The position numbers were made by a program, and so were the translations under genes. Under the pieces are notes generated by a model, which was not told the DNA's origin, made no database searches, and saw only the letters and a program-made list of their open reading frames with translations. From a virus, in IMG/VR virus record IMGVR_UViG_3300036770_006954, positions 107,630 to 171,629 of that record: a stretch of DNA of 64,000 nt. The stretch is one strand, 5' to 3'. This document shows, in pieces, positions 5,918 to 38,237 of this stretch (positions are counted from its first letter, which is position 1; each line of letters begins with the position of its first letter).

Positions 5918-7795
5918 TTAGGAATTTAACAACTTATCTAACTCTTCTTCTATTTTACCTAAACTTTGTTGTGCAATACCCAAATTAAGAAACTGACTAC
6001 CATATAAATCGGTCTCAATTAAAAGATTCATGTCTTTATTTTGAGTAGATTCGGGAGTAATTTCCGCCTCTTCAGGTGCGGTTCCTTCTTCAGGGGTTTC
6101 ACCACCTAATTCAGCACCAAGGTCACCACCCAAGTCACCACCAATCTCAGGACCCGCATCAAAACTACCACCACCACCAAATGCTGCCGCCGCTGGTTCA
6201 GAAGTTTCTCCTGGAGGTGCTTGTGGAGCCCCTTCACCAGGTTTGTTTCCGTACAACTTATCAAGTTGGTCGAACAATCCTGTCTTAGAAATTACTGTTG
6301 GAGTATTCTTCAACTCCTCACCAATAGCTCTTTCCATTCTCTGTTGTAGAAGGTCAGTTCTGATTTCATCATCTGACCAATTAAAAATGTGTTTCTTGGC
6401 CCAAGTAGATGACGCTGGTTGAATACCATTACCTGGGTCTGAAACTAAATCACGATACAATAGAACTTTTTCTTTCCAAATATCAACCTTGAGTAGGTCG
6501 GCTTGCGTTGATGGGTTAGTAAGACCTAAGGTAAAATTAGAAATCTCCTCTTCAAACCCAAGTAGAAATAAGTGAATGATTGCAATCTTGTTAAGTTCTT
6601 GCAACATCGACTTTTGAATTCTATTAATGGTTCTTGCAAATCGGATATCCATCAGAGCCAAAGTTTTACCATCACCAACAACTTCCTCAAAACCTAAAAA
6701 CGCCTTAGGAATTCTAAGAGCAGTAACAAGTTTTTTCTGAATGTATTCGATGTCTGCAATTTCCGAAAGATTTTGAGCACCAGGTAAAGTTTCGATTGGC
6801 GATGGTTGTGCTGGGTCCCTTACAGGAATGAAGAAGTCTTGGTCTACAGCCATTTGGTTGAATCTCATGTCTACATTACCTGTCTTTGAATCTACAATTT
6901 GTTCTCTCTTGAACTTGTTGGCAACACGCTGTACATAAGCCTCAACATCATCATCGTTCATGTTTCCAACATAAACTTTAAAGATTCTTCTCTCAGGCGC
7001 TCGTGAAGTACGATAAATCAACATAGCATCTTCAGATAACAAAAGTTGTTTCCAAATACGACGAGACTTTTCTAACATAGAAGTACCGTAAGGTAGTTTT
7101 CTATCGTCACCTAATAATCTAAAGTGAGCAATTTCCCATGTTTGGAACTCCATATTTTGAGTTTTCCAAGTGAATCTTAATCCCTTGTCTTCAGTATTAT
7201 TTTGTGGAACACCAACCGAAGCATTTCTTGTAGAAAGACCTTGCTCAAATCGTTCAATTTCGATGTTCGGAAGTTGTTGACAACCAATAACCCCCTTTTC
7301 AGGGTCCAATCTCATATAAACGAAATTATCACCGTATTTACAAGTGTTTCTTGTCCACATCGGTAAATTGGTGTTAATATCCAAAGCATTGTTGAATAAA
7401 TCGGCTAATACTGATTTAATCCTTTTTGATTCAGAATAAATTTGAAGAATTTGACCGTCCTCGTTTGGTGTGGTGGATTCTTCGGCATAGATATCCAAAG
7501 CTGCTGAGATTTCTGGAGTATACTCCATAGATTCATAATCGTAATACGAAGCCAGTCTGTTTGGTTCGTAGTAGATTGCTTGGGTGTATAAATTGTTTTC
7601 AACTTTAGCAAACTGATTCGCTAAATAAAAAGATTGTTTGGCTTGGAGTTTCTCTCTTTCGTATTCTGTCTTGTCAGTTGTCCTGAGGAGTTCTCTTTTG
7701 TCTAACTTATAGACAGGAAAATCTTGGTTCATTAAGGCATCGGGCCCCAAAGCCCTTGTCAGTCTTTGCCAAACCGTTAGATTTCTATTTTCCAT
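5918..7795 (-). CDS. Portal protein (T4 gp20-like)
   Basis: EDAMLIYRTSRAPERRIFKVYVGNM, DFFIPVR, IETLPGAQNLSEIADIEY, ALRIPK. Confidence 0.95.
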   Translation of the reverse strand: MENRNLTVWQRLTRALGPDALMNQDFPVYKLDKRELLRTTDKTEYEREKLQAKQSFYLANQFAKVENNLYTQAIYYEPNRLASYYDYESMEYTPEISAALDIYAEESTTPNEDGQILQIYSESKRIKSVLADLFNNALDINTNLPMWTRNTCKYGDNFVYMRLDPEKGVIGCQQLPNIEIERFEQGLSTRNASVGVPQNNTEDKGLRFTWKTQNMEFQTWEIAHFRLLGDDRKLPYGTSMLEKSRRIWKQLLLSEDAMLIYRTSRAPERRIFKVYVGNMNDDDVEAYVQRVANKFKREQIVDSKTGNVDMRFNQMAVDQDFFIPVRDPAQPSPIETLPGAQNLSEIADIEYIQKKLVTALRIPKAFLGFEEVVGDGKTLALMDIRFARTINRIQKSMLQELNKIAIIHLFLLGFEEEISNFTLGLTNPSTQADLLKVDIWKEKVLLYRDLVSDPGNGIQPASSTWAKKHIFNWSDDEIRTDLLQQRMERAIGEELKNTPTVISKTGLFDQLDKLYGNKPGEGAPQAPPGETSEPAAAAFGGGGSFDAGPEIGGDLGGDLGAELGGETPEEGTAPEEAEITPESTQNKDMNLLIETDLYGSQFLNLGIAQQSLGKIEEELDKLLNS

Positions 7796-22272: not shown

Positions 22273-22680
22273 GGGGGTGACCGGTATTGATTGGCAGAGT
22301 TAGTCATACGGGGCATGCGGTGAGATGTTTCCTATCACCTAAATCTATGGATGCAAAAATCAAACGGCGAAACTTTCGCAAAACTCGAGGCTGTGGGTCT
22401 TCTCGCAGCTGAGGAAGTTACTGTAGCCTAAGGCTATATTAACAATGGGTCGATGGACATATAACCTTGAAACAGAAGTCCCTACGGTGTGGTTTCTACC
22501 TTAAAAGGAATGGAGGTCATGTTTGGTGTTCTACCGATTTGAGTGAACACCCCACAGTTGTTGGTGACGATGGTAAAATAGAAACCAAATAGTTCGGAGG
22601 GTGTGAAAAACCCTGACCTAAGCATGTAGTCCTTTATGGGTAAACTGAGCAAGACGCGGGTTCGATTCCCGCCACCTCCA
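22273..22680 (+). ncRNA. ssrA: tmRNA
   Basis: 5' GGGGGTG pairs with 3' CACCTCC-A including G3:U70; T-arm GCGGG-TTCGATT-CCCGC; internal tag ORF 22366-22431 GETFAKLEAVGLLAAEEVTVA*. Confidence 0.93.
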
Positions 22681-22819
22681 CTAATTTTGTTGGTTCGAAA
22701 ACCCCCCACTGTCACTATAGGAAATGAAAGATACTCGTGGTCAGTGGGGGTTTTCTTTTTATCACTTGACGGATAATTATTATGGATTATAATTCACTAA
22801 TAAAATTATAAGATTCAAA

Positions 22820-24990: not shown

Positions 24991-25066
24991 GTCGAAGTAG
25001 CTCAGTGGTAGAGCAGCTTTCTTAATTGAAGGTGTGACGCGATAGGTTCGATTCCTGCCTTCGGCT
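24991..25066 (+). ncRNA. tRNA-like RNA with undetermined anticodon
   Basis: Acceptor GTCGAAG/CTTCGGC, normal D-arm, TTCGATT loop; anticodon arm GCTTTC-TTAATT-GAAGGT is irregular. Confidence 0.7.
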
Positions 25067-25096
25067 CTTAATTACTCTAAAGACTATTTATAAGAC

Positions 25097-27025: not shown

Positions 27026-27167
27026 AGTACAACAAAGATACACAAAAAATTAGAACTAAACTAATAAAAGCAATTTTATATGCCCCTTGAATTTTGTGTT
27101 GTGACCTACCTTGCCAATCCTCTTCGTTCCAAGAGTCTTTCCAATTCCCACTATATTTGTTTGCCAT
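27015..27167 (-). CDS. Small membrane protein
   Basis: MANKYSGNWKDSWNEEDWQGRS...TM helix; the longer ORF call overlaps tRNA-Glu. Confidence 0.55.
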   Translation of the reverse strand: MANKYSGNWKDSWNEEDWQGRSQHKIQGAYKIAFISLVLIFCVSLLYYVQ

Positions 27168-27349: not shown

Positions 27350-27392
27350 TATTTGTTATTACAAATATACAATAAAAAACTAAAAGACCAAA

Positions 27393-29245: not shown

Positions 29246-31237
29246 ATGCCCACAGCTCGTCCTTTCGCTTTAAACACTGGTAATACTATATCAGGCGCCG
29301 AACAGCTCGGTGATTTGGCTATTGGGTATGCTTCTTATGATTATACCACAAATCCTGGTGGTGTTAGATGGTGGGGTGGACCCGATGAAGACCCTGGGTA
29401 TATTATTTGTTATCCTGTTTATTCTCAAAACCGCCCATCACCCGATGGTCCAATAGGAAGTGTTGGATTCAAGAGGTCAAAACAAAAAACGGAAGAATCG
29501 TTCATCCAAATATCTGAGAATATGTCCAATTTTACCGAGACATTTACCTCAGGTGTTGAAGCCAAACAATGGTTGGTTGATAACGGATATTGGACATCTT
29601 ATATTGGTTCCTCGGCTTATACTCCTACGTGTTTTACAATAGATGGTGGTGTGGGTATTGGAGAAAATGCTTGGGATATAGAATACTCACCAACGTCACA
29701 AGAAATCTATCTGAACAATTTTTCCACTATTGGTGCATATGTCATCGATTCCAATACTTTACAATATAAAGGAACATTACCTGTGACGGGTACATCTGGA
29801 AACGGTCAGTTTGCTATCGACTTAAGTGATAACAAATTGTTTACTGGTCAAGTCAATGGGAATTACATTGTCAAATATGATTTGTCAGGATTACCCGTAA
29901 GTGGAAGAACAATAGATGCTGCAGCACAGCCTTATTCACCAACCAATAACTTTTTCCAAATTGCTTACAACCCTGTACATGATAAGTTATACGTGGCAAA
30001 TAATGATTCTAGAAAACTTTACATTCTCACGGGCTCTAACTTGTCAACTATTGCTGAGATTGACCCACCAACACCCCTTACGGGTGATGATGCCTTTAAT
30101 AATGTGGGTGTGAATACAAACAATGGTAATGTAATCACAACATTCGAGGGAGTTTTTATTGATGGTCAATTTTACAATTATTTTATTATAGACGGTGACA
30201 CAAATGAAATCACTTACACTGGATATACAGGTTCTGGTCTCCAATGGGATAATTTAACCAAGGTTATATTTTCACCTGTAAATAATAAGTTTTACCTCAT
30301 TCAATTTACGATAAGTGCCTTTACGGGTAAAGTTATACAAGTTATTGATGCCAATACTGGTGAATTTATTAAAACAATCAACCTATCTACCGCCAACTCA
30401 AACAATCAACAAACTGCAATCATTTACGATTCATTGAGAAATTACATATGGACACCTGACAGGCTTCTTAAACAGTGGGTTGTTATTGACTGTAACACTG
30501 ATGAAATTGTTCTTACATTCGAAGAAACTTTGGGTTGTGCTGGTTCATACTATGGTGGATTATTTGCAACTTACGATACTCTTAATGATAGAATGGTTGT
30601 TACTGCGGGAAGTTCATTTCAAAAAAAATATTTTGAGTTGTCCGAGATTATACCCTATCCTTATGTAACACCAACGCCAACACCTACTCAAGAATTAACT
30701 TCCACACCTACACCTACACCATCCCAAACGGTAACTCAAACTCCAACACCCACACTTTCAATAACACCAACAAACACACCCACACCGAGCACTAGTCCAG
30801 AACCTGTAACAGGATATTCCTTCAACTTAGTTGCCCTTCCATATAATTTTCCATCGTCAGAAAATTCAATTATGAATGGAGAGCCTAGCGCTACTGAAGG
30901 AAGCACCGAAATTAATGTTTTAGCAAGTGGAGGGAGAGGATTTTACTTCAACAGTATAGATTCGGGAAGTGTGGACAGAACAGATTATTATTCTGCATTT
31001 ACGGGTCAAAGTATAACAATAACATTTAACCAAGCAGGAAATGTTGCAATTTATTCGGGAGATACTAATTCATTCAAGTATTGGGAACAAGCACCGACTG
31101 GTAACGGATTTGTGTTTGGTGAGGGTATTGGAGTACCACCTTCAAACACTCCAAGTGGAACTGCGGTGCTAATACAATCGTCACCAACAAATTATACTAT
31201 TGGGTTACCAGTATTTGTGAGTTTGGTTATAAATTGA
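29246..31237 (+). CDS. Beta-propeller (YncE-like) protein with TP linker, putative virion/receptor-binding
   Basis: Repeats IAYNPVHDKLYVAN, VIDANTG, YDSLRNYIW; TPTPT linker; late motif upstream. Confidence 0.7.
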   Translation: MPTARPFALNTGNTISGAEQLGDLAIGYASYDYTTNPGGVRWWGGPDEDPGYIICYPVYSQNRPSPDGPIGSVGFKRSKQKTEESFIQISENMSNFTETFTSGVEAKQWLVDNGYWTSYIGSSAYTPTCFTIDGGVGIGENAWDIEYSPTSQEIYLNNFSTIGAYVIDSNTLQYKGTLPVTGTSGNGQFAIDLSDNKLFTGQVNGNYIVKYDLSGLPVSGRTIDAAAQPYSPTNNFFQIAYNPVHDKLYVANNDSRKLYILTGSNLSTIAEIDPPTPLTGDDAFNNVGVNTNNGNVITTFEGVFIDGQFYNYFIIDGDTNEITYTGYTGSGLQWDNLTKVIFSPVNNKFYLIQFTISAFTGKVIQVIDANTGEFIKTINLSTANSNNQQTAIIYDSLRNYIWTPDRLLKQWVVIDCNTDEIVLTFEETLGCAGSYYGGLFATYDTLNDRMVVTAGSSFQKKYFELSEIIPYPYVTPTPTPTQELTSTPTPTPSQTVTQTPTPTLSITPTNTPTPSTSPEPVTGYSFNLVALPYNFPSSENSIMNGEPSATEGSTEINVLASGGRGFYFNSIDSGSVDRTDYYSAFTGQSITITFNQAGNVAIYSGDTNSFKYWEQAPTGNGFVFGEGIGVPPSNTPSGTAVLIQSSPTNYTIGLPVFVSLVIN

Positions 31238-31310
31238 GGTCTTGGTCAGATTCGAACTGACGAATAACGCTTTTGCAGAGCGCCCCCTTGAGCCACTTGG
31301 GTACAAGACC
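31237..31310 (-). tRNA. tRNA-Cys(GCA)
   Basis: GCGCT CT-GCA-AA AGCGT, U73. Confidence 0.93.
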
Positions 31311-31313
31311 TTT

Positions 31314-31391
31314 TGGGGTGATTAATGGGTTTCGAACCCACGACCTTCTGAACCACAATCAGACACTCTAACCAACTGAGCTATAATCACC
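31314..31391 (-). tRNA. tRNA-His(GUG)
   Basis: TCTGA TT-GTG-GT TCAGA; G-1 and encoded CCA. Confidence 0.93.
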
Positions 31392-31407
31392 GTATATTTA
31401 CAAATAT

Positions 31408-31992
31408 ATGTATATTTCAGACAAATACCAAATCCAATGGTGGGTACCACCCAGAACTGCAAGTCGGATGACTAGAAAATTTTTAGAAAAATTAAACTTT
31501 AGAGGAGAATGGGGTCATCACACAGTTTATGGTGATTCAACATTCGATGTTTACCTTAACATAAGGAATCCCTACTCAATTGTTGTGTCACTATTTTTTT
31601 TGTCTCGTCAAGCTGAAGGATTAACATTCGAACAATTCGTCAAAAAGTCCAAAGCAGATTACTTGGGGTTCCATAACACTCACTTGTTAGATTATGTTCA
31701 AGCTTTGAAAGATAGAAAATTAAAATTAGTTAAATTAATAAGAGTAGAAAACCTTATCGATGATATGTTATCAATTGATTTCATTCAAAATAATCAAGAA
31801 TTATTGATGGATGAAATTGAAGAACTTAACAAAGGTGTTGGTCCTTGGAGAAGAGGGTATAATCCTGAAGTGTTAAAACCATACTCAGAGTTCTACACAC
31901 AAGAACTTGCGGATATTGTATATCAAAATAGAAAAAAGTATTTTGAGTTTGGTGGATACGACAGAGATTCTTGGAAAACTCTGATAAACTAA
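31408..31992 (+). CDS. Sulfotransferase-family protein
   Basis: PPRTASR (5'-PSB-like), IRNPYSIVVS (3'-PB-like), YSEFYTQELADIV. Confidence 0.65.
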   Translation: MYISDKYQIQWWVPPRTASRMTRKFLEKLNFRGEWGHHTVYGDSTFDVYLNIRNPYSIVVSLFFLSRQAEGLTFEQFVKKSKADYLGFHNTHLLDYVQALKDRKLKLVKLIRVENLIDDMLSIDFIQNNQELLMDEIEELNKGVGPWRRGYNPEVLKPYSEFYTQELADIVYQNRKKYFEFGGYDRDSWKTLIN

Positions 31993-31999
31993 AAAAAAG

Positions 32000-32103
32000 G
32001 TGTCGGGGTAGGAATCCCACCTACAAGCGAGAACAACCATAGAAGGTCTTAATGTTCTCCATCCAAAAAATGGATGTGCCTTTGTCAATTCAGCCACCCG
32101 ACA
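32000..32103 (-). ncRNA. tRNA-like RNA with U-rich anticodon loop and ~35-nt variable arm
   Basis: TGTCGGG/CCCGACA acceptor, CATCC-ATTTTTT-GGATG, GAGAAC..GTTCTC arm, T-arm GTAGG-TGGGATT-CCTAC. Confidence 0.75.
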
Positions 32104-32114
32104 TAATAAGTTTG

Positions 32115-32186
32115 CTCCTCGGGGGAATTACGATATCCCGACCTAACGATTAACAGTCGTTCGCTCTACCTCTGAGCTACCGAGGA
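32115..32186 (-). tRNA. tRNA-Asn(GUU), atypical T-loop
   Basis: AACGA CT-GTT-AA TCGTT; T-loop ATCGTAA. Confidence 0.88.
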
Positions 32187-32211
32187 ATGCTTGGCATGCA
32201 AGATTAAAATG

Positions 32212-32294
32212 TTGGAAGGGACGGATTCGAACCGCCGTACCCGTACAGGAGCAGTTTTACAGACTGCCGGTTTTAACCACTCACCCACCTTCCA
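32212..32294 (-). tRNA. tRNA-Tyr(GUA)
   Basis: GCAGT CT-GTA-AA ACTGC. Confidence 0.93.
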
Positions 32295-32304
32295 TTGTCA
32301 TCTG

Positions 32305-32376
32305 CGGTCTATCACGGATTCGAACCGAGGCTACCTCATAGACAGTGAGGCGTGTTTACCACTACACTAATAGACC
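32305..32376 (-). tRNA. tRNA-Asp(GUC)
   Basis: CCTCA CT-GTC-TA TGAGG (U37). Confidence 0.9.
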
Positions 32377-32466
32377 AAAATAATTAATGATGAGAAATAG
32401 TTTCAAAGAAAGCTATTACCATCTTTTTCAAAAACAACTTAATTTTTTTCATACCAATAAGTATTG

Positions 32467-32572
32467 AAGTCAAGACAGGAATCGAACCTATTTTACCGCG
32501 TACATAGCCTAACACTAAAAGTTCGTTTGACTACCTCTTTAACCTACGATTACGAGCCACTCGCTCTTGACT
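32467..32572 (-). ncRNA. AGUCA-family tRNA-like RNA (106 nt)
   Basis: AGTCAAG/CTTGACT-T acceptor, ATAGG-TTCGATT-CCTGT T-arm, non-tRNA interior. Confidence 0.75.
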
Positions 32573-32577
32573 AAATT

Positions 32578-32645
32578 ACCCGTCTTTCCAGGCTGTCAAC
32601 AACTTATGTGTTAGCCTCACACATCAATCACTAGGTTGTCAGCTT
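32578..32645 (-). ncRNA. Small structured RNA, UGACAGC/GAAAGA motif copy A
   Basis: GACAAC..GTTGTT stem then TGACAG CCTG-GAAAGA-CGGG. Confidence 0.55.
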
Positions 32646-32647
32646 TG

Positions 32648-32732
32648 TAGTCAGGACAGGATTCGAACCTGTAACTTTCGTAGATACCTTTCTGGCTCTC
32701 CCTACTGCGTATTCCTTTTTCGCCACCTGACT
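32648..32732 (-). ncRNA. AGUCA-family tRNA-like RNA (85 nt)
   Basis: AGTCAGG/CCTGACT-A, GCG/CGC D-stem, 16-nt anticodon loop, ACAGG-TTCGAAT-CCTGT. Confidence 0.8.
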
Positions 32733-32778
32733 AAAGTTAGTTTTCGGGACATTGGACAAAACTAACAAACCCTAAAAG

Positions 32779-32918
32779 TAATCGGGGTGGGAATTGAACC
32801 CACTCTAAAGGACGGTCCCTTTCTCAGTCACACAAGGTAATTACTCCTTGCTACACCTACCGTGTAATGCTTTGTGGCCACTCCACATTACCAAATGTCA
32901 ACCATAGACATCCCGATT
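32779..32918 (-). ncRNA. 140-nt RNA with tRNA acceptor stem and T-arm
   Basis: AATCGGG/CCCGATT-A, GTGGG-TTCAATT-CCCAC, multi-hairpin interior. Confidence 0.75.
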
Positions 32919-32923
32919 ATGTT

Positions 32924-33010
32924 GCCTGTCTCTCCAAGCTGTCATACCTCCCTTGTATTCTGTTCTGGCATATAGCCGTTCCTAACGGTAAAGCGGTATC
33001 AAAAACCAGT
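32924..33010 (-). ncRNA. Small structured RNA, UGACAGC/GAGAGA motif copy B
   Basis: ATACC..GGTAT stem then GACAG CTTG-GAGAGA-CAGG. Confidence 0.55.
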
Positions 33011-33013
33011 ATG

Positions 33014-33103
33014 TAGTCAGGACAGGACTCGAACCTGTACGAATGTTCCTTTCCCCGCAGACATAAAGTACAACGGTGCGCCTACCAATTACGCCACCTG
33101 ACT
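33014..33103 (-). ncRNA. AGUCA-family tRNA-like RNA (90 nt)
   Basis: AGTCAGG/CCTGACT-A, GCG/CGC D-stem, enlarged anticodon loop, ACAGG-TTCGAGT-CCTGT. Confidence 0.8.
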
Positions 33104-33111
33104 ATAATAAA

Positions 33112-33313
33112 ATGGAAACCCCCCCTCTACGCTCACCGTAGTTGTGAATTTTACTGGACATAGTTTACTGTCCACCTGTTGCGAGTCGACTGCAGAGCAG
33201 GGTCCATCACAGAGTACCTTGGGGCATGTACAACTTCTTTATGGTTGCGACCCATTTGAAGCCAAGGTTCCTTTCAACGGTGCTAATCCGTCTTCTGTAA
33301 GGAGTTTTTCCAT
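33112..33313 (-). ncRNA. ~200-nt structured RNA of unknown family
   Basis: Closing helix ATGGAAA../..TTTCCAT; internal ACCTTGG/CCAAGGT, ACAGA/TCTGT, TGGACA/TGTCCA. Confidence 0.55.
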
Positions 33314-33317
33314 TTTG

Positions 33318-33415
33318 TGGTGTGAGCGGGATTCGAACCACGCGGCACAGTCTTTTTCACGGACTTGCTCTACCATGGGAGTATCATATGAGTACTCCAC
33401 CTGAGCTATCACACC
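33318..33415 (-). tRNA. tRNA-Phe(GAA) with hairpin inserted in the D-loop
   Basis: GGTGTGA/TCACACC; loop GT-GAA-AA; D-loop contains GGAGTA-CTCATATGA-TACTCC. Confidence 0.75.
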
Positions 33416-33421
33416 TTATTG

Positions 33422-33502
33422 TACAGAGGGTGGGACTCGAACCCACACATCTTACGATACCGGTTCCTAAGACCGGCGCGGCTACCGTTACGCCACCTCT
33501 GC
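33422..33502 (-). tRNA. tRNA-Leu(UAG)
   Basis: CCGGT CT-TAG-GA ACCGG. Confidence 0.93.
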
Positions 33503-33507
33503 ATTGA

Positions 33508-33655
33508 GTTAGTAGTAGTTGACTTTATCAGGAATCCCGCCTAACCCCATTTAAGAAGTCCAGCTTCACACACCATTAGAGAGAGGGTTAATTCTTAGTG
33601 TGTACCCTTGCGATATGCTCTCCCATACCGTCAACCCACGCATTGTACTACCAAC
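33508..33655 (-). ncRNA. ~150-nt structured RNA of unknown family
   Basis: GTTGGTAGTA/TACTACTAAC and GTTGAC/GTCAAC closing helices; first element after promoter 33704-33711. Confidence 0.55.
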
Positions 33656-33673
33656 CGTTTGTTTTTTCCACCA

Positions 33674-33711
33674 TTTCAAAGACCTTTTGTCTTAACAACA
33701 CCACAAATATA
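33674..33711 (-). promoter_or_regulatory. TATATTTG promoter followed by boxA-like GGTCTTTGAAA
   Basis: Motifs read on the minus strand upstream of the ncRNA array. Confidence 0.6.
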
Positions 33712-33725
33712 TGGTAATATTTTTA

Positions 33726-34229
33726 TCAAACCAAATCTTTATGAAAAACTTTTTCTGAATTTTGTTCTACCCAAGACAAACTAATAGAAACATGTTTGGA
33801 AGATTCTTTCTTCGATGATTCAATTTTGGTTTTCACTATTTCCAAAACCTTATCAGTTGTACATTTCCAAATACCATTACAACTAAGTCCATCGTCTTTA
33901 TCAAACAAGGCAAAAAAGAATGCATCGTTTCTTTTAACCCTGTGAAGATTATCTTCATGGATTCTATCAAGTTGAAAACTACCACCTTCTTTACAAGAAA
34001 GGTACTCGTATTTTTCTTTCCCATCTTTAGAATATGCGTCAGCACCATGTTTTGTTTTATGACATTCATGACCAAGAATTTCGGAAACCATCCATTCTTT
34101 AATGAATCCTGGTGTTAACAGGTCTTGTTCAAACCCATTTTCCTTTTTGTATAGGTTTAGAGTCCCTACCAATAGAAGGAGGGGATTTTCTTGTTGTGTT
34201 ACCAAGTCGAGCAATTCATTTTGCGTCAT
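33726..34229 (-). CDS. PD-(D/E)xK restriction-endonuclease-like protein
   Basis: HGADAYSKDGKEKYEYLSCK resembles a PvuII-type active-site segment. Confidence 0.55.
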   Translation of the reverse strand: MTQNELLDLVTQQENPLLLLVGTLNLYKKENGFEQDLLTPGFIKEWMVSEILGHECHKTKHGADAYSKDGKEKYEYLSCKEGGSFQLDRIHEDNLHRVKRNDAFFFALFDKDDGLSCNGIWKCTTDKVLEIVKTKIESSKKESSKHVSISLSWVEQNSEKVFHKDLV

Positions 34230-34244
34230 AGGGTTGTATGTTAG

Positions 34245-34317
<73 letters not shown>

Positions 34318-34363
34318 GTTATGTTGGTAAATTATAGAAAACCGAATCTATAATGTCAAATTG

Positions 34364-34436
34364 TACACCCTGAAGGACTCGAACCTCCGACATCTTGCAT
34401 GTAAGGCAAGCGCTCTACCATCTGAGCTAAGAGTGT
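34364..34436 (-). tRNA. tRNA-Val(UAC)
   Basis: CTTGC CT-TAC-AT GCAAG. Confidence 0.93.
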
Positions 34437-34510
34437 ATTTGCAGGATATCGCTTAACCTGCGGTGAGTGTACCTTTCACCTTGTTCCCTTGCGGTACTAC
34501 GATTTTTTTG

Positions 34511-34616
34511 AAGTCAGTACAGGTACTGCCCCTGTTGCTTGGTCTTTTGCTTAACAGAGTATTATCAATGACACTCTGTGAACCTCACCCACGAGTTACT
34601 TTTACTCTAACTGACT
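34511..34616 (-). ncRNA. AGUCA-family tRNA-like RNA (106 nt)
   Basis: AGTCAGT/ACTGACT-T, GAGT/ACTC D-like stem, ACAGG-GGCAGTA-CCTGT T-arm. Confidence 0.7.
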
Positions 34617-34619
34617 TTG

Positions 34620-34692
34620 TGACCCCACCGAGATTTGAACTCGGAACTCCCATGTTAAAAGCATGGTACTCTAGCCGTTGAGTTATGAGGTC
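34620..34692 (-). tRNA. tRNA-Lys(UUU)
   Basis: CCATG CT-TTT-AA CATGG. Confidence 0.93.
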
Positions 34693-34698
34693 TTTTTA

Positions 34699-34976
34699 TT
34701 AACAAAGAATAACCAGGATTCTGTTTTTAATCTGTCATTAGTCTATTGGCCCCACCTTACCCGACCAGCTCACCGTCATGGGTTGTTTTGGGTTGAATCC
34801 TCGGTGGTTCAACCGATATAAGGTTGTGGACTTATAACTGACCATTATAAGTTTGTTACCTTATATCTCCCACCTTAAGCTGCGATTTCCTGAGTTTCCT
34901 CTATGTTCAACATTTCACACTGTTCAGTGACAATGAACACCTGATTTTATTGAACAAAGCGACAGAACTTTGTTAA
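34699..34976 (-). ncRNA. rnpB: RNase P RNA (compact, phage-encoded)
   Basis: P1 TTAACAAAG/CTTTGTTAA; P2 CTGTCG/TGACAG; P3 TGTTCAA/TTGAACA; CR-I GAGGAAACTCAGGA; CR-IV AGACTAAT; CR-V ACAGAATCCTGGTTA; P4 AAC(U)CAGGA/UCCUGGUU with bulged U. Confidence 0.85.
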
Positions 34977-35387
34977 CTATTCCAAATCCAACATCTGGCG
35001 ATGCGTGATGTTTTTATTAACCTTGATTTCCTTTTTTCGATTCATCAGTTTTCTAACGGTCCACCAATCTTTCGATAGAAAAACCACATAACCTACAAGT
35101 TTTCCCGAGGCATATGGCATTCGATACTCATCCAGGACAGTAATTTGATAAGGAAAAAGATAACCCGATATTTTTTCTTCAATCATGATTTTATAGAAAA
35201 CTACTTTATCGGGACCCATCCGTTTGAAATAAACATCAGGTTTTTCGTGTTTATTGAAATATTCAGTGATAAGACCGTCTTTGATTATCAACTTGGAATC
35301 CCCATCTAAAAAAGAGTAGAATTCAGCAAATCCATGTACAGTAAGAACGATAATAACAAATAAAAGAGTAATAAGAATTATTGTCAT
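34977..35387 (-). CDS. Hypothetical protein with N-terminal TM helix
   Basis: 136 aa ORF. Confidence 0.65.
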   Translation of the reverse strand: MTIILITLLFVIIVLTVHGFAEFYSFLDGDSKLIIKDGLITEYFNKHEKPDVYFKRMGPDKVVFYKIMIEEKISGYLFPYQITVLDEYRMPYASGKLVGYVVFLSKDWWTVRKLMNRKKEIKVNKNITHRQMLDLE

Positions 35388-35486
35388 AGTTGAAAAATTT
35401 AAGAGTTGTTTTCGTTGTTTTCAGGTTTAGGGTTTGGTTCGTCGGATTTAGGTGGAACATTCCACATCTCATCCCAAAAGGTGTAT

Positions 35487-36077
35487 TCACTCATTGTTGT
35501 CAGGTTTAGAAAATGTTTCTTCGGCTTTACCACCAAATTTACTGTTATTATACAAATCATCAAAATCTTTGAATCCCTTTGAACGGGCATAATCGTCGTT
35601 TTTCTTCATTTGAAATGCTCTGATAGTTTCAGGGTCTCTCATCTGGTCGGGTGTTTCAAACCCAAGGGATTTGGTACACTCTTTTTCACACCATTCATGC
35701 GAACCGATTTGAATATGGATTGGTAAATCGGTCTCGAGTGAGTCCATGAAGTCCTCGAACTGATTTGCAGCAATAAACGGCATCGTGTAAATACCCTCAT
35801 CAACAGCATATCCCGATTCATCTTGACTGTCAAAGATTTCAACTCTCCCCATTCGGTATCTTTCACCCATCAAAGAGAATACTCCGTAACCAACAGTTGA
35901 ATAATGAAACCTACCAGGTTCACTGACTCCGTGAAGGTCAATACAACTAGGATTTCGTTCAATCCAAGTTGCGAGATGGTTGGCAATATCTGTATCGTTT
36001 AGTTCAATATTATCCTTTTCAGCATTGTGACGGATGTTAGTTAAAAACCAAGCCAATTTTTTTCTATCTACTTTCAT
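35487..36077 (-). CDS. Hypothetical protein
   Basis: 196 aa ORF. Confidence 0.7.
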   Translation of the reverse strand: MKVDRKKLAWFLTNIRHNAEKDNIELNDTDIANHLATWIERNPSCIDLHGVSEPGRFHYSTVGYGVFSLMGERYRMGRVEIFDSQDESGYAVDEGIYTMPFIAANQFEDFMDSLETDLPIHIQIGSHEWCEKECTKSLGFETPDQMRDPETIRAFQMKKNDDYARSKGFKDFDDLYNNSKFGGKAEETFSKPDNNE

Positions 36078-36155
36078 TTCAAGTCAATATTTCGTTATTT
36101 GAAGCTCAAATGTAATCATTTGTGAGCCGTATCGTTTATGTAAATGAGCCAATTG

Positions 36156-36227
36156 TAGCGTCGGGTGGATTTGAACCACCGACCGTCTCCGTATGAAAGA
36201 GAAGCTCTACCCCTGAGCTACGACGCC
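36156..36227 (-). tRNA. tRNA-Met(CAU), elongator type
   Basis: TCTCT TT-CAT-AC GGAGA; G1:U72 pair, no 3 GC pairs in the anticodon stem. Confidence 0.85.
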
Positions 36228-36230
36228 AAC

Positions 36231-36719
36231 TTAACTAAACTCTGTGGAAGTAGAAACCCGAAGTCCATTAATGTACCCCTCGTGTTTTCGATTCGAAATA
36301 AAAGGATTACGGTCAGGATATTCTTTAAAGTAAGTCTCAATATCCCATCCATCCTCTTGACCCCATTCAAGAGACATTTGGATAAATTCATCAACATTCA
36401 TTTCTCTTCCGTACTCGTCAACGACTCGACCACTTCGGATAAACTCAAAAAGTTCCTCCTTGGTTTTATAGTATTTCGAATCATTCCAGTTCCAAAGGAA
36501 TTTCCATCCACTACTTCGTTTACCTAAGTGAACCTTGGTACCATCCAAGAATTCCTCCCAAGGTGAAACGGAATCCCACTCACCAACTGAGATAGAACGG
36601 AACCCTCGTTCAATTTGAGACGGATTGATTGAATCCATTTCATCAATTCTCATACGGAGCTTTTGCTCTCGTTTAATCATTTCATGTCCTTTCGGAACTC
36701 GATAAAAATTGGTTCCCAT
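36231..36719 (-). CDS. Conserved phage hypothetical protein
   Basis: MGTNFY...HLGKRSSGWKFLW...VDEYG. Confidence 0.7.
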   Translation of the reverse strand: MGTNFYRVPKGHEMIKREQKLRMRIDEMDSINPSQIERGFRSISVGEWDSVSPWEEFLDGTKVHLGKRSSGWKFLWNWNDSKYYKTKEELFEFIRSGRVVDEYGREMNVDEFIQMSLEWGQEDGWDIETYFKEYPDRNPFISNRKHEGYINGLRVSTSTEFS

Positions 36720-36730
36720 AATTGAATAAA

Positions 36731-37357
36731 TTAAGATACAGACGAACCATCCTTACGATAGATTTCCATCGTTGATGATTTACCTCGGTTATCTAAATGT
36801 TCAGAAACTTCAAGAAGTTGGTCTTTGAAGAAAATTCTTGCAATGTAATCCCAATCACCATCAGGAGTATCTACAGAACCACTTTGGTATGAAAAATCTT
36901 TTGAGGTTGGTGTTTCATCACTCTCGAATTCCATTTCATAGATACCACCTTTGTTTTCATCGAAACTAATAAGAATGTTATCAACACCATCCATATCTTC
37001 AGGAATTGCCAAGTAGGATTGATAAGGGTACTTCTCGTCAATTACAGTATCATCACCAACATTCTCATAAATGTCACCCACTTCTTTATCGGTAAATGAC
37101 AGAACTACATTACCTGACTCATCTTCAACCTCAAAAGTAGTTGAACCATTATCCATTGGAGCTGACATGTGAAATAAATCGGGATTGTAAAAGTCTTCCA
37201 AGATTCCTTCATCTTCCAATTCCCAACGAGTTTCAGACAAGTCTTCATATTCATTTTCGTACATGAGTTCTTGAATTCGCTCGACTTGTTCGTCCGAGAT
37301 TGAATGGGCAACGGCTTCCATTTCCCAACCGTACACTTTTAATTTGTATTTTGCCAT
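36731..37357 (-). CDS. Acidic hypothetical protein
   Basis: 208 aa ORF. Confidence 0.7.
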   Translation of the reverse strand: MAKYKLKVYGWEMEAVAHSISDEQVERIQELMYENEYEDLSETRWELEDEGILEDFYNPDLFHMSAPMDNGSTTFEVEDESGNVVLSFTDKEVGDIYENVGDDTVIDEKYPYQSYLAIPEDMDGVDNILISFDENKGGIYEMEFESDETPTSKDFSYQSGSVDTPDGDWDYIARIFFKDQLLEVSEHLDNRGKSSTMEIYRKDGSSVS

Positions 37358-37360
37358 TTT

Positions 37361-37552
37361 TTAGAGAATTTGAGGGTTGTTATTTTGATTAGTTGCGTTG
37401 TGAACAAAATAAGCGGTGAAAAAAATGTTGATACATAAAGATACCCAATCGTAGGTGGAAAGGGTTTCCATATTCGATAAAATCACCATCTTAGCCCCGA
37501 GCCAAAAGGTAAAAAGGTACGCCAATACCTGATAAATCATTTTTTGTGTCAT
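37361..37552 (-). CDS. Small two-TM membrane protein
   Basis: 63 aa hydrophobic; TATCTTTG promoter upstream (37576-37583). Confidence 0.6.
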   Translation of the reverse strand: MTQKMIYQVLAYLFTFWLGAKMVILSNMETLSTYDWVSLCINIFFTAYFVHNATNQNNNPQIL

Positions 37553-37613
37553 AGTTCAAACTTTTAAGTTTATCACAAAGATACAACAAAAAATTTAAAC
37601 CACCAAATGTTAG

Positions 37614-37684
37614 CACGCCCACTAGGACTCGAACCTAGAACAACGGTTTTGGAGACCGTCATGTTACCATTACACTATGGACGC
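37614..37684 (-). tRNA. tRNA-Trp(CCA)
   Basis: ACGGT CT-CCA-AA ACCGT. Confidence 0.93.
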
Positions 37685-37690
37685 ATTTTG

Positions 37691-37762
37691 TAGTTCCTGA
37701 AGGATTTGAACCCTCACCATTTCATCCGTAGTGAAAGATGCTATCCATTACACCAAAGAACC
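37691..37762 (-). tRNA. tRNA-Arg(ACG)
   Basis: TTTCA CT-ACG-GA TGAAA. Confidence 0.93.
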
Positions 37763-37766
37763 ATTG

Positions 37767-37837
37767 TTACCCCGGATAGATTCGAACTACCATTAAATGA
37801 GTCAAAGTCATTTGTCCTGCCCTTAGACGACGGGGTA
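37767..37837 (-). tRNA. tRNA-Gln(UUG)
   Basis: AATGA CT-TTG-AC TCATT. Confidence 0.93.
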
Positions 37838-37842
37838 ATAAG

Positions 37843-37917
37843 TTGGAAAGATAGGACTCGAACCTATGACCTTCTCGGTATCAGCGAGACGCTCTAAACC
37901 AACTGAGCTACATTCCA
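37843..37917 (-). tRNA. tRNA-Ile(GAU)
   Basis: TCTCG CT-GAT-AC CGAGA. Confidence 0.93.
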
Positions 37918-37924
37918 ATTAAAG

Positions 37925-37999
37925 TGGAGAGGATGGGAATCGAACCCATATCTCTGAATTTTCAGTCCAGTGCGTACTGACCAACTGCGCTACCTCTCC
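37925..37999 (-). tRNA. tRNA-Phe(GAA)
   Basis: CTGGA CT-GAA-AA TTCAG. Confidence 0.92.
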
Positions 38000-38006
38000 A
38001 TGGCTA

Positions 38007-38023
38007 CCAATATGTCAAAGAAC
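38007..38023 (-). promoter_or_regulatory. boxA-like antitermination site
   Basis: GTTCTTTGACATATTGG between terminator and first tRNA. Confidence 0.6.
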
Positions 38024-38030
38024 TTAGTAA

Positions 38031-38067
38031 GAAAACAAAAGACCCGAACCTTTTTGGGGTTCGGGCC
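38031..38067 (-). terminator. Intrinsic (attenuator) terminator upstream of tRNA cluster
   Basis: GGCCCGAACC-CCAAAAA-GGTTCGGGTC-TTTTGTTTT. Confidence 0.8.
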
Positions 38068-38095
38068 TCTGTATAGTTTCTTACAAGTACTACAT

Positions 38096-38188
38096 TCAAA
38101 CTCCCAAACCCGCACAACTACGCTGGTACCATTTTACACAAATGATATCAAACATATTGTTAACGAGATTATGAAATAGAGTTTTCAT
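38096..38188 (-). CDS. Putative leader peptide (30 aa)
   Basis: MKTLFHNLVNNMFDIICVKWYQRSCAGLGV*; A-rich start, ~18 nt downstream of promoter; not in ORF track. Confidence 0.65.
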   Translation of the reverse strand: MKTLFHNLVNNMFDIICVKWYQRSCAGLGV

Positions 38189-38206
38189 GTTTTTATAATT
38201 ATACCA

Positions 38207-38237
38207 CAAAGATACAAAAGATTTTTAATCTATCAAA
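38207..38237 (-). promoter_or_regulatory. Bacteroidota sigma70-type promoter of the leader/tRNA unit
   Basis: TTTG-N19-TATCTTTG. Confidence 0.75.

What the first reader, a model, noticed from the sequence alone, without database searches (positions are those of the whole stretch)
31237..38237. Integrated model: a self-processing, translation-sensing stable-RNA island
Seen: within 7 kb on one strand there are 16 tRNAs, an RNase P RNA, six tRNA-like RNAs, at least five other structured RNAs, two boxA-like sites and a leader-peptide attenuator. Several RNAs have non-canonical elbows (T-loops AUCGUAA, UGGGAUU, GGCAGUA; a D-loop hairpin insert). Inference: the phage senses translation collapse, antiterminates, and matures its own RNA set with an RNase P that does not need a canonical elbow. 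Together with tmRNA, bS21 and ClpCP elsewhere in the window, this would be a translation-rescue or counter-defence system.
Basis: inference. Interest (0 to 1): 0.85.

Follow-up and report, generated by a model that had tools for sequence, protein, structure and literature searches.

The report
Phage tRNA island with mini RNase P
This stretch of a large aquatic phage is a real cluster of tRNA genes, tRNA-shaped RNAs and a stripped-down RNase P ribozyme gene, but these parts occur separately in other phages, so they look like neighbours rather than one integrated machine.

Summary
The minus strand of 31.2-38.2 kb holds 15 ordinary tRNA genes, plus one tRNA-shaped RNA that ARAGORN calls a tRNA. 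It also holds a 278-nt RNase P RNA (34699-34976), at least eight tRNA-shaped non-decoding RNAs, a near-threshold freshwater-1 RNA, and a small ORF with antiterminator and terminator in front of tRNA-Phe.

The RNase P RNA belongs to a phage family of at least 50 members with a full catalytic domain and no specificity domain. Covariation is strong, including the P4 and P6 pseudoknots. This scan found the family, and the AGUCAGG tRNA-chassis family, before on other DNA. I found no paper describing either.

The integration is not supported:
- Chassis RNAs occur in 7 of 50 RNase P-positive records.
- RNase P RNA occurs in 0-1 of 50 chassis-positive records.
- Odd T-loops are no commoner in RNase P-positive loci (4.7% against 6.2%).
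- boxA-like sites are at chance level.
- The island has several promoter-like sites (consensus matches only) and seven protein genes.

What does travel with the RNase P RNA is a large tRNA set: 23-57 tRNAs against 0-6 in complete genomes. tmRNA tends to come along too. No phage carries RnpA. The leader attenuator is plausible, but seen only in close relatives and untested.

The parts
34699..34976 (-). Compact RNase P RNA, 278 nt. P1 34968-34976/34699-34707. P2 34960-34966/34731-34737. Long P3 34902-34959. CR-I and P4 5' strand 34888-34896, with bulged U at 34893. P4 3' strand 34711-34718. P5 34884-34887/34796-34799. P6 pseudoknot 34876-34882/34766-34772. P7 34870-34874/34803-34807. Variable 62-nt hairpin in place of the S-domain 34808-34869. 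P15-P17 34750-34795, with the L15 GGU at 34754-34756.
   Evidence: helix coordinates read from the sequence and the family alignment
31236..31390 (-). tRNA-Cys(GCA) and tRNA-His(GUG)
32114..32376 (-). tRNA-Asn(GUU) with T-loop AUCGUAA, tRNA-Tyr(GUA) and tRNA-Asp(GUC)
33421..33502 (-). tRNA-Leu(UAG)
34244..34692 (-). tRNA-Lys(UUU), tRNA-Val(UAC) and tRNA-Met(CAU). A perfect sigma-70-type promoter match (TTGACA-17-TATAAT) lies at 34331-34359, between Val and Met.
36155..36227 (-). tRNA-Met(CAU), second copy
37613..37999 (-). tRNA cluster Phe-Ile-Gln-Arg-Trp
33015..33103 (-). AGUCAGG chassis RNA (a). It has an acceptor stem, a Leu/Tyr-type D-arm and a T-arm but no anticodon arm. ARAGORN miscalls it tRNA-Tyr.
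32649..32732 (-). AGUCAGG chassis RNA (b). It is 92% identical to a copy in L088/L259.
32468..32572 (-). AGUCAAG chassis RNA (c), 105 nt
34512..34616 (-). AGUCAGU chassis RNA (d), with T-loop GGCAGUA; folding z-score -2.8
32001..32103 (-). tRNA-like RNA (e) with T-loop UGGGAUU and a long extra arm. A run of eight U follows at 31991-31998. Conserved at 85-89% in L279, L266 and L253.
32779..32919 (-). Long tRNA-like RNA (f): an 8-bp closing stem, several internal hairpins and a canonical T-arm; folding z-score -2.4
33318..33415 (-). tRNA-like RNA (g) with a hairpin inserted in the D-loop; Rfam tRNA model 41 bits
33517..33636 (-). tRNA-like or structured RNA (h) with a closing stem and a CGGGAUU loop. 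Parts are conserved in L003, L052, L001, L196 and L253.
33149..33211 (-). freshwater-1-like RNA (RF02979): 66 bits, family threshold 72, E 1e-13
32573..32647 (-). Repeat copy A. It shares a conserved block of about 25 nt at its 3' end with copy B at 32920-33012. Each copy sits between a chassis RNA and a longer tRNA-like RNA.
38096..38188 (-). 30-codon leader ORF. The peptide is conserved in L196 and in L434/L435. Its last codons (about 38102-38110) can pair with the 5' arm of the terminator.
38031..38070 (-). Intrinsic terminator: 13-bp stem plus a U-tract
38002..38022 (-). 21-nt block immediately 5' of tRNA-Phe. Its 18-nt core is invariant in four relatives and the block is unique in the window. 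Its role is unknown.
38202..38216 (-). Promoter-like motif that runs into an extended -10 element. An exact second copy lies at 37571-37585, and near copies lie at 27028-27042 and 27357-27371.
33726..34229 (-). 167-aa ORF with no family match; about 91% identical homologues in L266, L279 and L271
34977..37552 (-). Five ORFs of 136, 196, 162, 208 and 63 aa, interrupted by tRNA-Met. The 196-, 162- and 208-aa ORFs have homologues in close relatives. None has a Pfam match.
31408..31992 (+). 194-aa ORF on the opposite strand, with homologues at 40-42% identity in L196 and L003

Best explanation
The stretch is a mosaic tRNA and stable-RNA island of an uncultured aquatic jumbo phage.

What is there (shown):
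- 15 ordinary tRNA genes.
- A compact bacterial type-A RNase P RNA that keeps the whole catalytic domain (P1-P7 and P15-P17, including the P4 and P6 pseudoknots and the L15 GGU). A variable hairpin stands in place of the specificity domain.
- About eight tRNA-shaped non-decoding RNAs. Four belong to the widespread AGUCAGG tRNA-chassis family.
- Seven small protein genes.
- Several promoter-like sites on the minus strand.

Most likely mechanism (inferred):
- The phage ribozyme joins the host RnpA protein, since no phage copy of that protein exists. It adds 5'-processing capacity for the phage's own large load of tRNA precursors.
- Without an S-domain it should recognise mainly the acceptor stem, 5' leader and 3' end, as isolated catalytic domains and archaeal type-T RNAs do.
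- The tRNA-shaped RNAs sit here because they use the same tRNA-processing route. They are independent cargo that host RNase P can evidently handle in phages lacking the ribozyme.
- The small ORF, antiterminator and terminator in front of tRNA-Phe probably couple read-through into that tRNA cluster to ribosome occupancy of the leader. This device belongs to the clade, not to the RNase P family.
For: RNase P RNA:
- Global Rfam match to RF00373.
- Relatives hit RF00010 end to end at 57-61 bits.
- 50 full-length family members were found with my model.
- 96% of cells are paired, against 70% in shuffles and 32-45% when partners are slid.
- P4 and P6 covary although they were not part of the model.

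Link to tRNA load:
- 23-57 tRNAs in 8 complete RNase P-positive genomes against 0-6 in 8 complete genomes without it (p 0.0009).
- 537 tRNAs lie in 556 kb of RNase P-positive loci.
- RnpA is absent from all 11 RNase P-positive records searched (8 of them complete) and from this phage's own incomplete record.

Independence of the other modules.

Several promoter-like sites.

Leader: ORF and alternative pairing kept in L196 and L434/L435, and pairing kept in L433.
Against: - There is no expression, end-mapping or activity data.
- The comparison sets were picked by sequence patterns, not at random, and are not corrected for phylogeny. RNase P-positive genomes are also larger on average.
- In two published huge phages the RNA lies away from any tRNA gene.
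- L433 keeps the antiterminator and terminator without an ORF. That fits a ribosome-sensing model poorly.
- The invariant block just upstream of tRNA-Phe could be a separate promoter, which would make attenuation unnecessary.
- Whether host RnpA binds this RNA is untested.
Confidence: 0.6

Rival explanations
1. The RNase P RNA lost its S-domain so that it could mature this phage's own elbow-aberrant RNAs. The island is one antiterminated operon switched on by translation collapse. Together with tmRNA, bS21 and ClpCP it forms a translation-rescue or counter-defence system.
For: - All the parts are present in one window.
- Some substrates do have odd T-loops.
- The leader has an antiterminator inside the end of its ORF.
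- tmRNA tends to accompany the RNase P RNA.
Against: - The parts are distributed almost independently.
- Non-canonical T-loops are not enriched in RNase P-positive loci, and the same odd loops occur in loci without it.
- Most chassis RNAs keep canonical D- and T-loops.
- boxA-like sites are at chance level.
- There are internal promoter-like sites.
- bS21, the Clp ATPase and ClpP lie 9 to 26 kb away from the island and apart from each other.
Confidence: 0.08
2. The compact RNase P RNA acts on the host's own machinery rather than as extra capacity. It might capture host RnpA to divert processing toward phage RNAs, or replace the host ribozyme after the phage or a defence system destroys it.
For: - No phage RnpA was found, so host protein would be needed.
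- The catalytic domain holds the known RnpA-binding region (established knowledge of type-A RNase P).
- In two huge phages the gene lies far from any tRNA gene.
Against: - The active-site elements (P4 with its bulged U, CR-I, CR-IV, CR-V, L15 GGU) are conserved and covary. A pure decoy would not need them.
- There is a strong link with large tRNA sets.
Confidence: 0.12
3. The 'leader attenuator' is simply a small conserved protein gene with its own terminator. The tRNA-Phe cluster is transcribed from a separate promoter in the invariant block downstream, with no sensing of translation.
For: - The peptide is conserved at the amino-acid level in three lineages.
- It has no run of regulatory codons.
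- An invariant block containing TTGACA lies between the terminator and the tRNA.
- L433 has the same RNA elements without the ORF.
Against: - The antiterminator strand is kept in all four versions.
- It is predicted to pair with the 5' arm of the terminator in nascent transcripts.
- Its position 6-13 nt before the stop codon is what a ribosome-occlusion switch needs.
- No -10 element lies at a fixed distance from the TTGACA.
Confidence: 0.3

Closest known systems
Bacterial type-A RNase P RNA (E. coli M1 RNA, rnpB; Rfam RF00010)
   Same: It has P1-P7 and P15-P17, the P4 helix with a bulged U, CR-I, CR-IV and CR-V, the P6 pseudoknot and the L15 GGU. GC-richer family members align end to end with RF00010.
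   Different: It is 182-307 nt long instead of about 370. P8-P14 with CR-II and CR-III are replaced by one variable hairpin. It scores below the Rfam threshold. It is encoded by phages, and no RnpA gene accompanies it.
Archaeal type-T RNase P RNA of Pyrobaculum (about 200 nt, S-domain nearly absent; from my knowledge of Lai et al. 2010)
   Same: It is a natural RNase P RNA reduced to the catalytic domain.
   Different: Type T is archaeal and works with archaeal proteins. The phage RNA has bacterial type-A architecture with P6 and P15-P17, and Rfam's type-T model did not match it.
Phage T4 tRNA gene cluster with stable RNAs C and D (species 1 and 2; from my knowledge)
   Same: It is a phage tRNA cluster that also encodes small stable non-tRNA RNAs with tRNA-like ends, processed by the tRNA machinery.
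   Different: T4 relies wholly on host RNase P. This island has its own ribozyme gene, many more tRNAs, and chassis RNAs from a family with hundreds of different cores.
Leader-peptide transcription attenuators (trp, his, pheST type)
   Same: A short ORF, then a terminator, with an alternative pairing whose 5' strand a translating ribosome would cover.
   Different: There is no run of cognate codons and no pause hairpin. The peptide sequence itself is conserved. It would control tRNA genes rather than a biosynthetic operon. It is untested.
Huge-phage translation gene sets (Al-Shayeb et al. 2020, PMC7162821)
   Same: Large phages carry tRNAs, tmRNA, ribosomal proteins and similar genes. The 642-kb and 735-kb records whose lengths match the genomes reported in that paper carry this RNA.
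   Different: That paper does not mention RNase P (0 occurrences), and the GenBank records are unannotated.

Membership tests
Bacterial type-A RNase P RNA (RF00010) | P4 helix with a bulged U, flanked by CR-I (GAGGAA) and CR-V (ACAGAA...UA) | tested here: met
   Across 43 distinct sequences, 98.8% of P4 cells are paired and 7 of 8 pairs show compensatory change. P4 was not part of the model used for alignment.
Bacterial type-A RNase P RNA (RF00010) | P1, P2, P3, P5, P7 and P15-P17 helices in type-A order | tested here: met
   89-100% of cells are paired per helix, all with compensatory changes. The alignment was fitted to these helices, so the counts lean toward them. The free-energy fold of the window copy gives P1, P2 and P3 independently.
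Bacterial type-A RNase P RNA (RF00010) | P6 pseudoknot between J5/7 and the P17 loop | tested here: met
   97.2% of cells are paired and 2 pairs show double changes. L076 has a wholly different but complementary pair of strands.
Bacterial type-A RNase P RNA (RF00010) | Specificity domain (P8-P14 with CR-II and CR-III) that reads the tRNA elbow | tested here: not met
   Only about 10-62 variable nucleotides lie inside P7 in the copies read by eye, and there is no conserved block there.
Bacterial type-A RNase P RNA (RF00010) | Score at or above Rfam's curated threshold (100 bits) | tested here: not met
   The window copy gives no RF00010 hit and RF00373 at 23 bits. Relatives score 57-61 bits.
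Bacterial type-A RNase P RNA (RF00010) | Endonucleolytic cleavage of pre-tRNA 5' leaders | not testable with these tools
   Needs an in vitro assay or complementation of an rnpB depletion strain.
Bacterial RNase P holoenzyme | RnpA (C5) protein partner encoded alongside | tested here: not met
   PF00825 is absent from this record and from 11 RNase P-positive records, 8 of them complete.
tRNA (RF00005), for the AGUCA RNAs | Acceptor stem, D-arm and T-arm | tested here: met
   7-bp acceptor stem, 5-bp T-stem with a 7-nt loop, and a Leu/Tyr-type D-arm in most copies. Rfam tRNA model scores 38-40 bits.
tRNA (RF00005), for the AGUCA RNAs | Anticodon stem-loop with a consistent anticodon | tested here: not met
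   ARAGORN rejects 104 of 143 unique members. The rest get scattered, inconsistent anticodons. Lengths run from 68 to 159 nt.
Leader-peptide transcription attenuator | Short ORF, then an intrinsic terminator, plus a mutually exclusive antiterminator overlapped by the ORF | tested here: met
   Folds of partial transcripts pair the end of the ORF with the 5' arm of the terminator in the window, L196 and L433. In L434 this pairing is already the free-energy minimum.
Leader-peptide transcription attenuator | Run of regulatory codons for the sensed amino acid | tested here: not met
   No tandem codons are present, and the peptides differ outside a conserved central motif.
Leader-peptide transcription attenuator | Read-through that responds to translation | not testable with these tools
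   Needs reporter assays or Term-seq.
boxA / Nus-dependent antitermination | boxA consensus at a promoter-proximal site, more often than chance | tested here: not met
   9 matches at up to 2 mismatches in the window against 8.9 expected. 49 of 100 shuffles do as well.
freshwater-1 RNA (RF02979) | Score at or above the family threshold (72 bits) | tested here: inconclusive
   66 bits, E 1e-13, full-length match. The relative in L196's record scores 69 bits.
tmRNA (RF00023) | Score at or above the family threshold (47 bits) | tested here: met
   84.6 bits at 22273-22683(+).

The most novel reading that the evidence does not exclude
Phages with very large tRNA sets build a hybrid RNase P: their own S-domain-less ribozyme plus the host's RnpA protein. 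This enzyme has relaxed, elbow-independent substrate recognition. It keeps phage tRNA and tRNA-scaffold RNA maturation going when host RNase P is limiting or shut off. In this clade, a leader that reads ribosome occupancy additionally gates tRNA output.
Probability: 0.2. Interest if true: 0.85.

Novelty: new variant of a known kind. Interest (0 to 1): 0.6.

Why it matters
- RNase P RNA is a universal cellular ribozyme. A virus-borne, naturally minimised version (down to 182-185 nt in relatives) would be a new model for how little RNA suffices for tRNA processing. It would also be a new item in the list of translation functions that large phages carry.
- The tight link with 23-57 phage tRNAs gives a concrete, testable reason for its existence.
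- The negative result matters too. The attractive 'integrated system' story should not be carried forward. The RNase P RNA, the tRNA-chassis RNAs, the freshwater-1 motif and the leader are separate modules, each needing its own explanation.
- The leader candidate would be a rare case of attenuation that controls tRNA genes.

Tried and rejected
- Rfam at curated thresholds and at E up to 10 over 11 kb gave no RNase P hit. RF00010 on the whole 171-kb record also gave none. Only a 351-nt scan revealed the match.
- megablast of the island against GenBank phages: no match. blastn with the window RNA and with L239's copy: no match.
- The search for related loci with the 136-aa ORF: nothing.
- Two 14-15-nt pattern scans of IMG/VR returned mostly chance matches. 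I reused those loci as controls.
- Pfam and PHROGs on the island's ORFs: no useful hits.
- The 196-aa ORF next to the RNA as a possible protein partner: it is syntenic only in the close clade, and it also occurs in L433 and L434 without the RNA nearby. Dropped.
- Scan of bacterial and archaeal genomes: true hits only on small MAG contigs, none on an isolate chromosome.
- Expression: no RNA holder is listed among the sequencing runs. Two runs labelled RNA-Seq hold small shares as contigs and are probably DNA. Laying them showed nothing about transcripts or ends.
- Whole records of the leader-bearing loci L433-L435 are 3-21% complete, so co-occurrence of leader and RNase P RNA could not be judged.
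I redid it with coordinates.
- MAFFT misaligned the 5' end of the window RNA because of its long P3. The covariance model likewise aligned only 34701-34924. The true P1 and P2 5' strands were placed by eye and from the free-energy fold.
- Literature: four searches for a phage-encoded RNase P RNA and one for the tRNA-chassis RNAs found no description of either.

Full report
WHERE THE WINDOW COMES FROM
The window is the last 64 kb of a 171.6-kb IMG/VR virus record that CheckV rates 57% complete, so it is a jumbo-size phage. Near-identical DNA is held by subsurface metagenome runs, and partial matches by several aquatic runs.

THE OBSERVATION
- ARAGORN finds 27 tRNA genes in the window. Sixteen lie on the minus strand between 31236 and 37999, and Rfam agrees.
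- One of the sixteen (33013-33103, called 'Tyr') has no anticodon arm and belongs to the AGUCAGG family described below. A proper tRNA-Tyr lies at 32211-32294. So there are 15 ordinary tRNAs.
- The stretch is not pure RNA. Six minus-strand ORFs and one plus-strand ORF occupy about 3 kb. At least five of the seven have protein-level homologues in related phages.
- tmRNA, bS21, ClpP and a Clp-type AAA_2 ATPase are present elsewhere in the window. They lie 9 to 26 kb from the island and apart from each other.

THE RNASE P RNA
- Detection. Rfam reports nothing at 64 kb or 11 kb. A 351-nt scan then gave a global match to archaeal RNase P (RF00373, model positions 1-288, 23 bits, E 6e-5). It aligned CR-I, CR-IV and CR-V.
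- Folding. The free-energy fold independently gives P1, P2 and P3, with z = -4.3.
- Relatives. Pattern scans of IMG/VR followed by nhmmer produced relatives. I built a covariance model from six of them, using nested helices only. A degenerate core pattern found 52 IMG/VR loci. Searching 51 loci (43 of them new) gave 50 full-length matches at 38-244 bits. Lengths were 182-307 nt, GC 0.33-0.60, on contigs up to 527 kb.
- Covariation (43 distinct sequences):
  - 96.0% of cells form standard pairs, against 69.9% after shuffling and 32-45% when partners are slid.
  - 42 of 55 pairs show compensatory changes.
  - P4 is 98.8% paired, 7 of its 8 pairs covary, and the bulged U is kept. P6 is 97.2% paired. 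Neither pseudoknot was in the model, so these counts are not an alignment artefact.
- Independent Rfam support. GC-richer members hit bacterial class A (RF00010) end to end at 57-61 bits, below the threshold of 100.
- The missing domain. Inside P7 there is only a variable hairpin, about 10-62 nt in the copies I read. The specificity domain is absent.
- Where else it occurs.
  - In bacterial and archaeal genome collections, true hits lie only on small MAG contigs.
  - Two GenBank huge-phage records, LR756502.1 (642 kb) and LR756501.1 (735 kb), carry it unannotated.
  - Their lengths match two genomes reported in the huge-phage paper, which never mentions RNase P.
  - Four literature searches found no description of such a gene in a phage.
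- Prior finds by this scan. The scan has found this family several times before on other DNA (e1-5642842, e1-5618013, e1-5355957, e1-5402863, e1-5632770).

THE tRNA-SHAPED RNAS
- Four elements share an AGUCA(G/A) acceptor stem and an ACAGG/CCUGU T-stem.
That gave 143 unique elements of 68-159 nt. Most have a Leu/Tyr-type D-arm and a normal UUCGAAU T-loop, but unrelated cores. ARAGORN rejects 104 of them.
- So this is a large tRNA-chassis family with mostly canonical elbows. The scan has also seen it before on other DNA (e1-5410580, e1-5678874 and others).
- Four further tRNA-like elements are present in the sequence: the UGGGAUU loop, the D-loop hairpin insert, a 141-nt multi-hairpin form and a 120-nt form. 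They are partly conserved in close relatives. Their folding z-scores are modest, from about -1.3 to -2.4 where computed.

TESTING THE INTEGRATION

| Feature | RNase P-positive set | AGUCA-positive set | Calls |
|---|---|---|---|
| AGUCA module | 7 of 50 records; 1 of 8 complete | by selection | 68 |
| RNase P model hit | by selection | 1 weak 66-nt hit in 50 records; 0 of 8 complete | 67 |
| freshwater-1-like motif | 1 of 50 records | 1 of 50 records | 87, 88 |
| Non-canonical T-loops (in fetched loci) | 22 of 468 tRNAs (4.7%) | 16 of 258 tRNAs (6.2%) | 69, 101 (p 0.39) |
| tRNA genes, complete genomes | 23-57 (genomes of 96-527 kb) | 0-6 (genomes of 30-271 kb) | 90, 101 (p 0.0009) |
| tmRNA above threshold, complete genomes | 6 of 8 | 1 of 8 | 82, 83, 101 (p 0.04) |

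- AUCGUAA-type loops swap positions 54 and 58. They occur in tRNAs of many specificities in both sets.
- No RnpA gene is present in this record or in 11 RNase P-positive records.
- These sets were chosen by sequence pattern and are not corrected for phylogeny or fully for genome size. The numbers are indicative only.

REGULATION
- boxA-like sites are at chance level.
- A 15-nt promoter-like motif that runs into an extended -10 element occurs exactly twice in the island, with near copies upstream of another tRNA pair. A perfect sigma-70-type promoter match lies between tRNA-Val and tRNA-Met. These are consensus matches, not mapped starts. Still, nothing suggests one long operon that needs antitermination.
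- The leader is more interesting.
  - The 30-codon ORF, the terminator and a block just before tRNA-Phe recur in L196 and in L434/L435, and the peptide is conserved. L433 keeps the RNA elements without the ORF.
  - In transcripts folded up to the terminator loop, the last codons of the ORF pair with the 5' arm of the terminator.
- A ribosome at the stop codon would block that pairing and favour termination. Slow or absent translation would favour read-through.
  - It rests on three or four close relatives, has no compensatory changes, and has a plain rival: a small gene with its own terminator followed by a separate promoter.

CONCLUSION
The island is real and rich in RNA genes. Its ribozyme is a genuine, undescribed kind of RNase P RNA. 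The components are separate modules that share a neighbourhood and a processing route, not a co-inherited system.

The best-supported function for the ribozyme is extra 5'-processing capacity for a very large phage tRNA set, probably together with host RnpA. Its lack of an S-domain implies recognition that does not depend on the tRNA elbow, but nothing here shows that this is its purpose.

No RNA-level evidence could be obtained.

Noticed in passing
L001:10970-11810 (minus strand): In this relative the RNase P RNA gene is split by an insertion of about 620 nt in the P3 loop that carries an HNH-endonuclease-like ORF. P1, P2 and the 5' half of P3 lie about 640 nt upstream of the rest.
   Followed up: partly
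L245:5828-5917: A phage contig with the compact RNase P RNA (6377-6574) also carries a bacterial small SRP (4.5S) RNA match above the Rfam threshold (49.9 bits, threshold 40).
   Followed up: no
L052:9496-9680; L242:2316-2497: Family members of only 182-185 nt, where the S-domain is reduced to a hairpin loop of about 16 nt. By my recollection these are shorter than any RNase P RNA described so far.
   Followed up: partly
L436:2970-3196 and L437:2963-3165 (LR756501.1, LR756502.1): The 735-kb and 642-kb published huge-phage genomes carry the compact RNase P RNA, unannotated. Unlike here, no tRNA gene lies within 3 kb.
   Followed up: partly
window 32114-32186 and tRNAs in L001, L406, L423, L343 and others: A recurrent phage T-loop variant, A(U/G)CG(U/A)NA, swaps positions 54 and 58 (A54...U58 instead of U54...A58). 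It is seen in tRNAs of many specificities and may preserve the reverse-Hoogsteen pair.
   Followed up: partly
window 24991-25067 (+): ARAGORN reports a tRNA with a four-base anticodon (UAAU) in an enlarged loop. Rfam's tRNA model gives 35 bits. It could be a frameshift-suppressor-like tRNA or a degenerate one.
   Followed up: no
window 38002-38022 (-): A 21-nt block directly 5' of tRNA-Phe has an 18-nt core that is invariant in four related phages, and the block is unique in the window. It could be a promoter, a processing signal or an endonuclease site.
   Followed up: partly
window 32468-33103 (-): The unit [AGUCA chassis RNA][short RNA ending in a shared block of about 25 nt][longer tRNA-like RNA] occurs twice in tandem.
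   Followed up: partly
L243:8313-8407: A phage contig with the RNase P RNA has a match to the selenocysteine tRNA model above threshold (64 bits, threshold 47). It may simply be a long-arm tRNA.
   Followed up: no
window 32001-32103 and 31991-31998 (-): A tRNA-like element is followed directly by eight U at the end of the minus-strand block, facing a convergent ORF. The acceptor/T-arm helix may double as a terminator.
   Followed up: no
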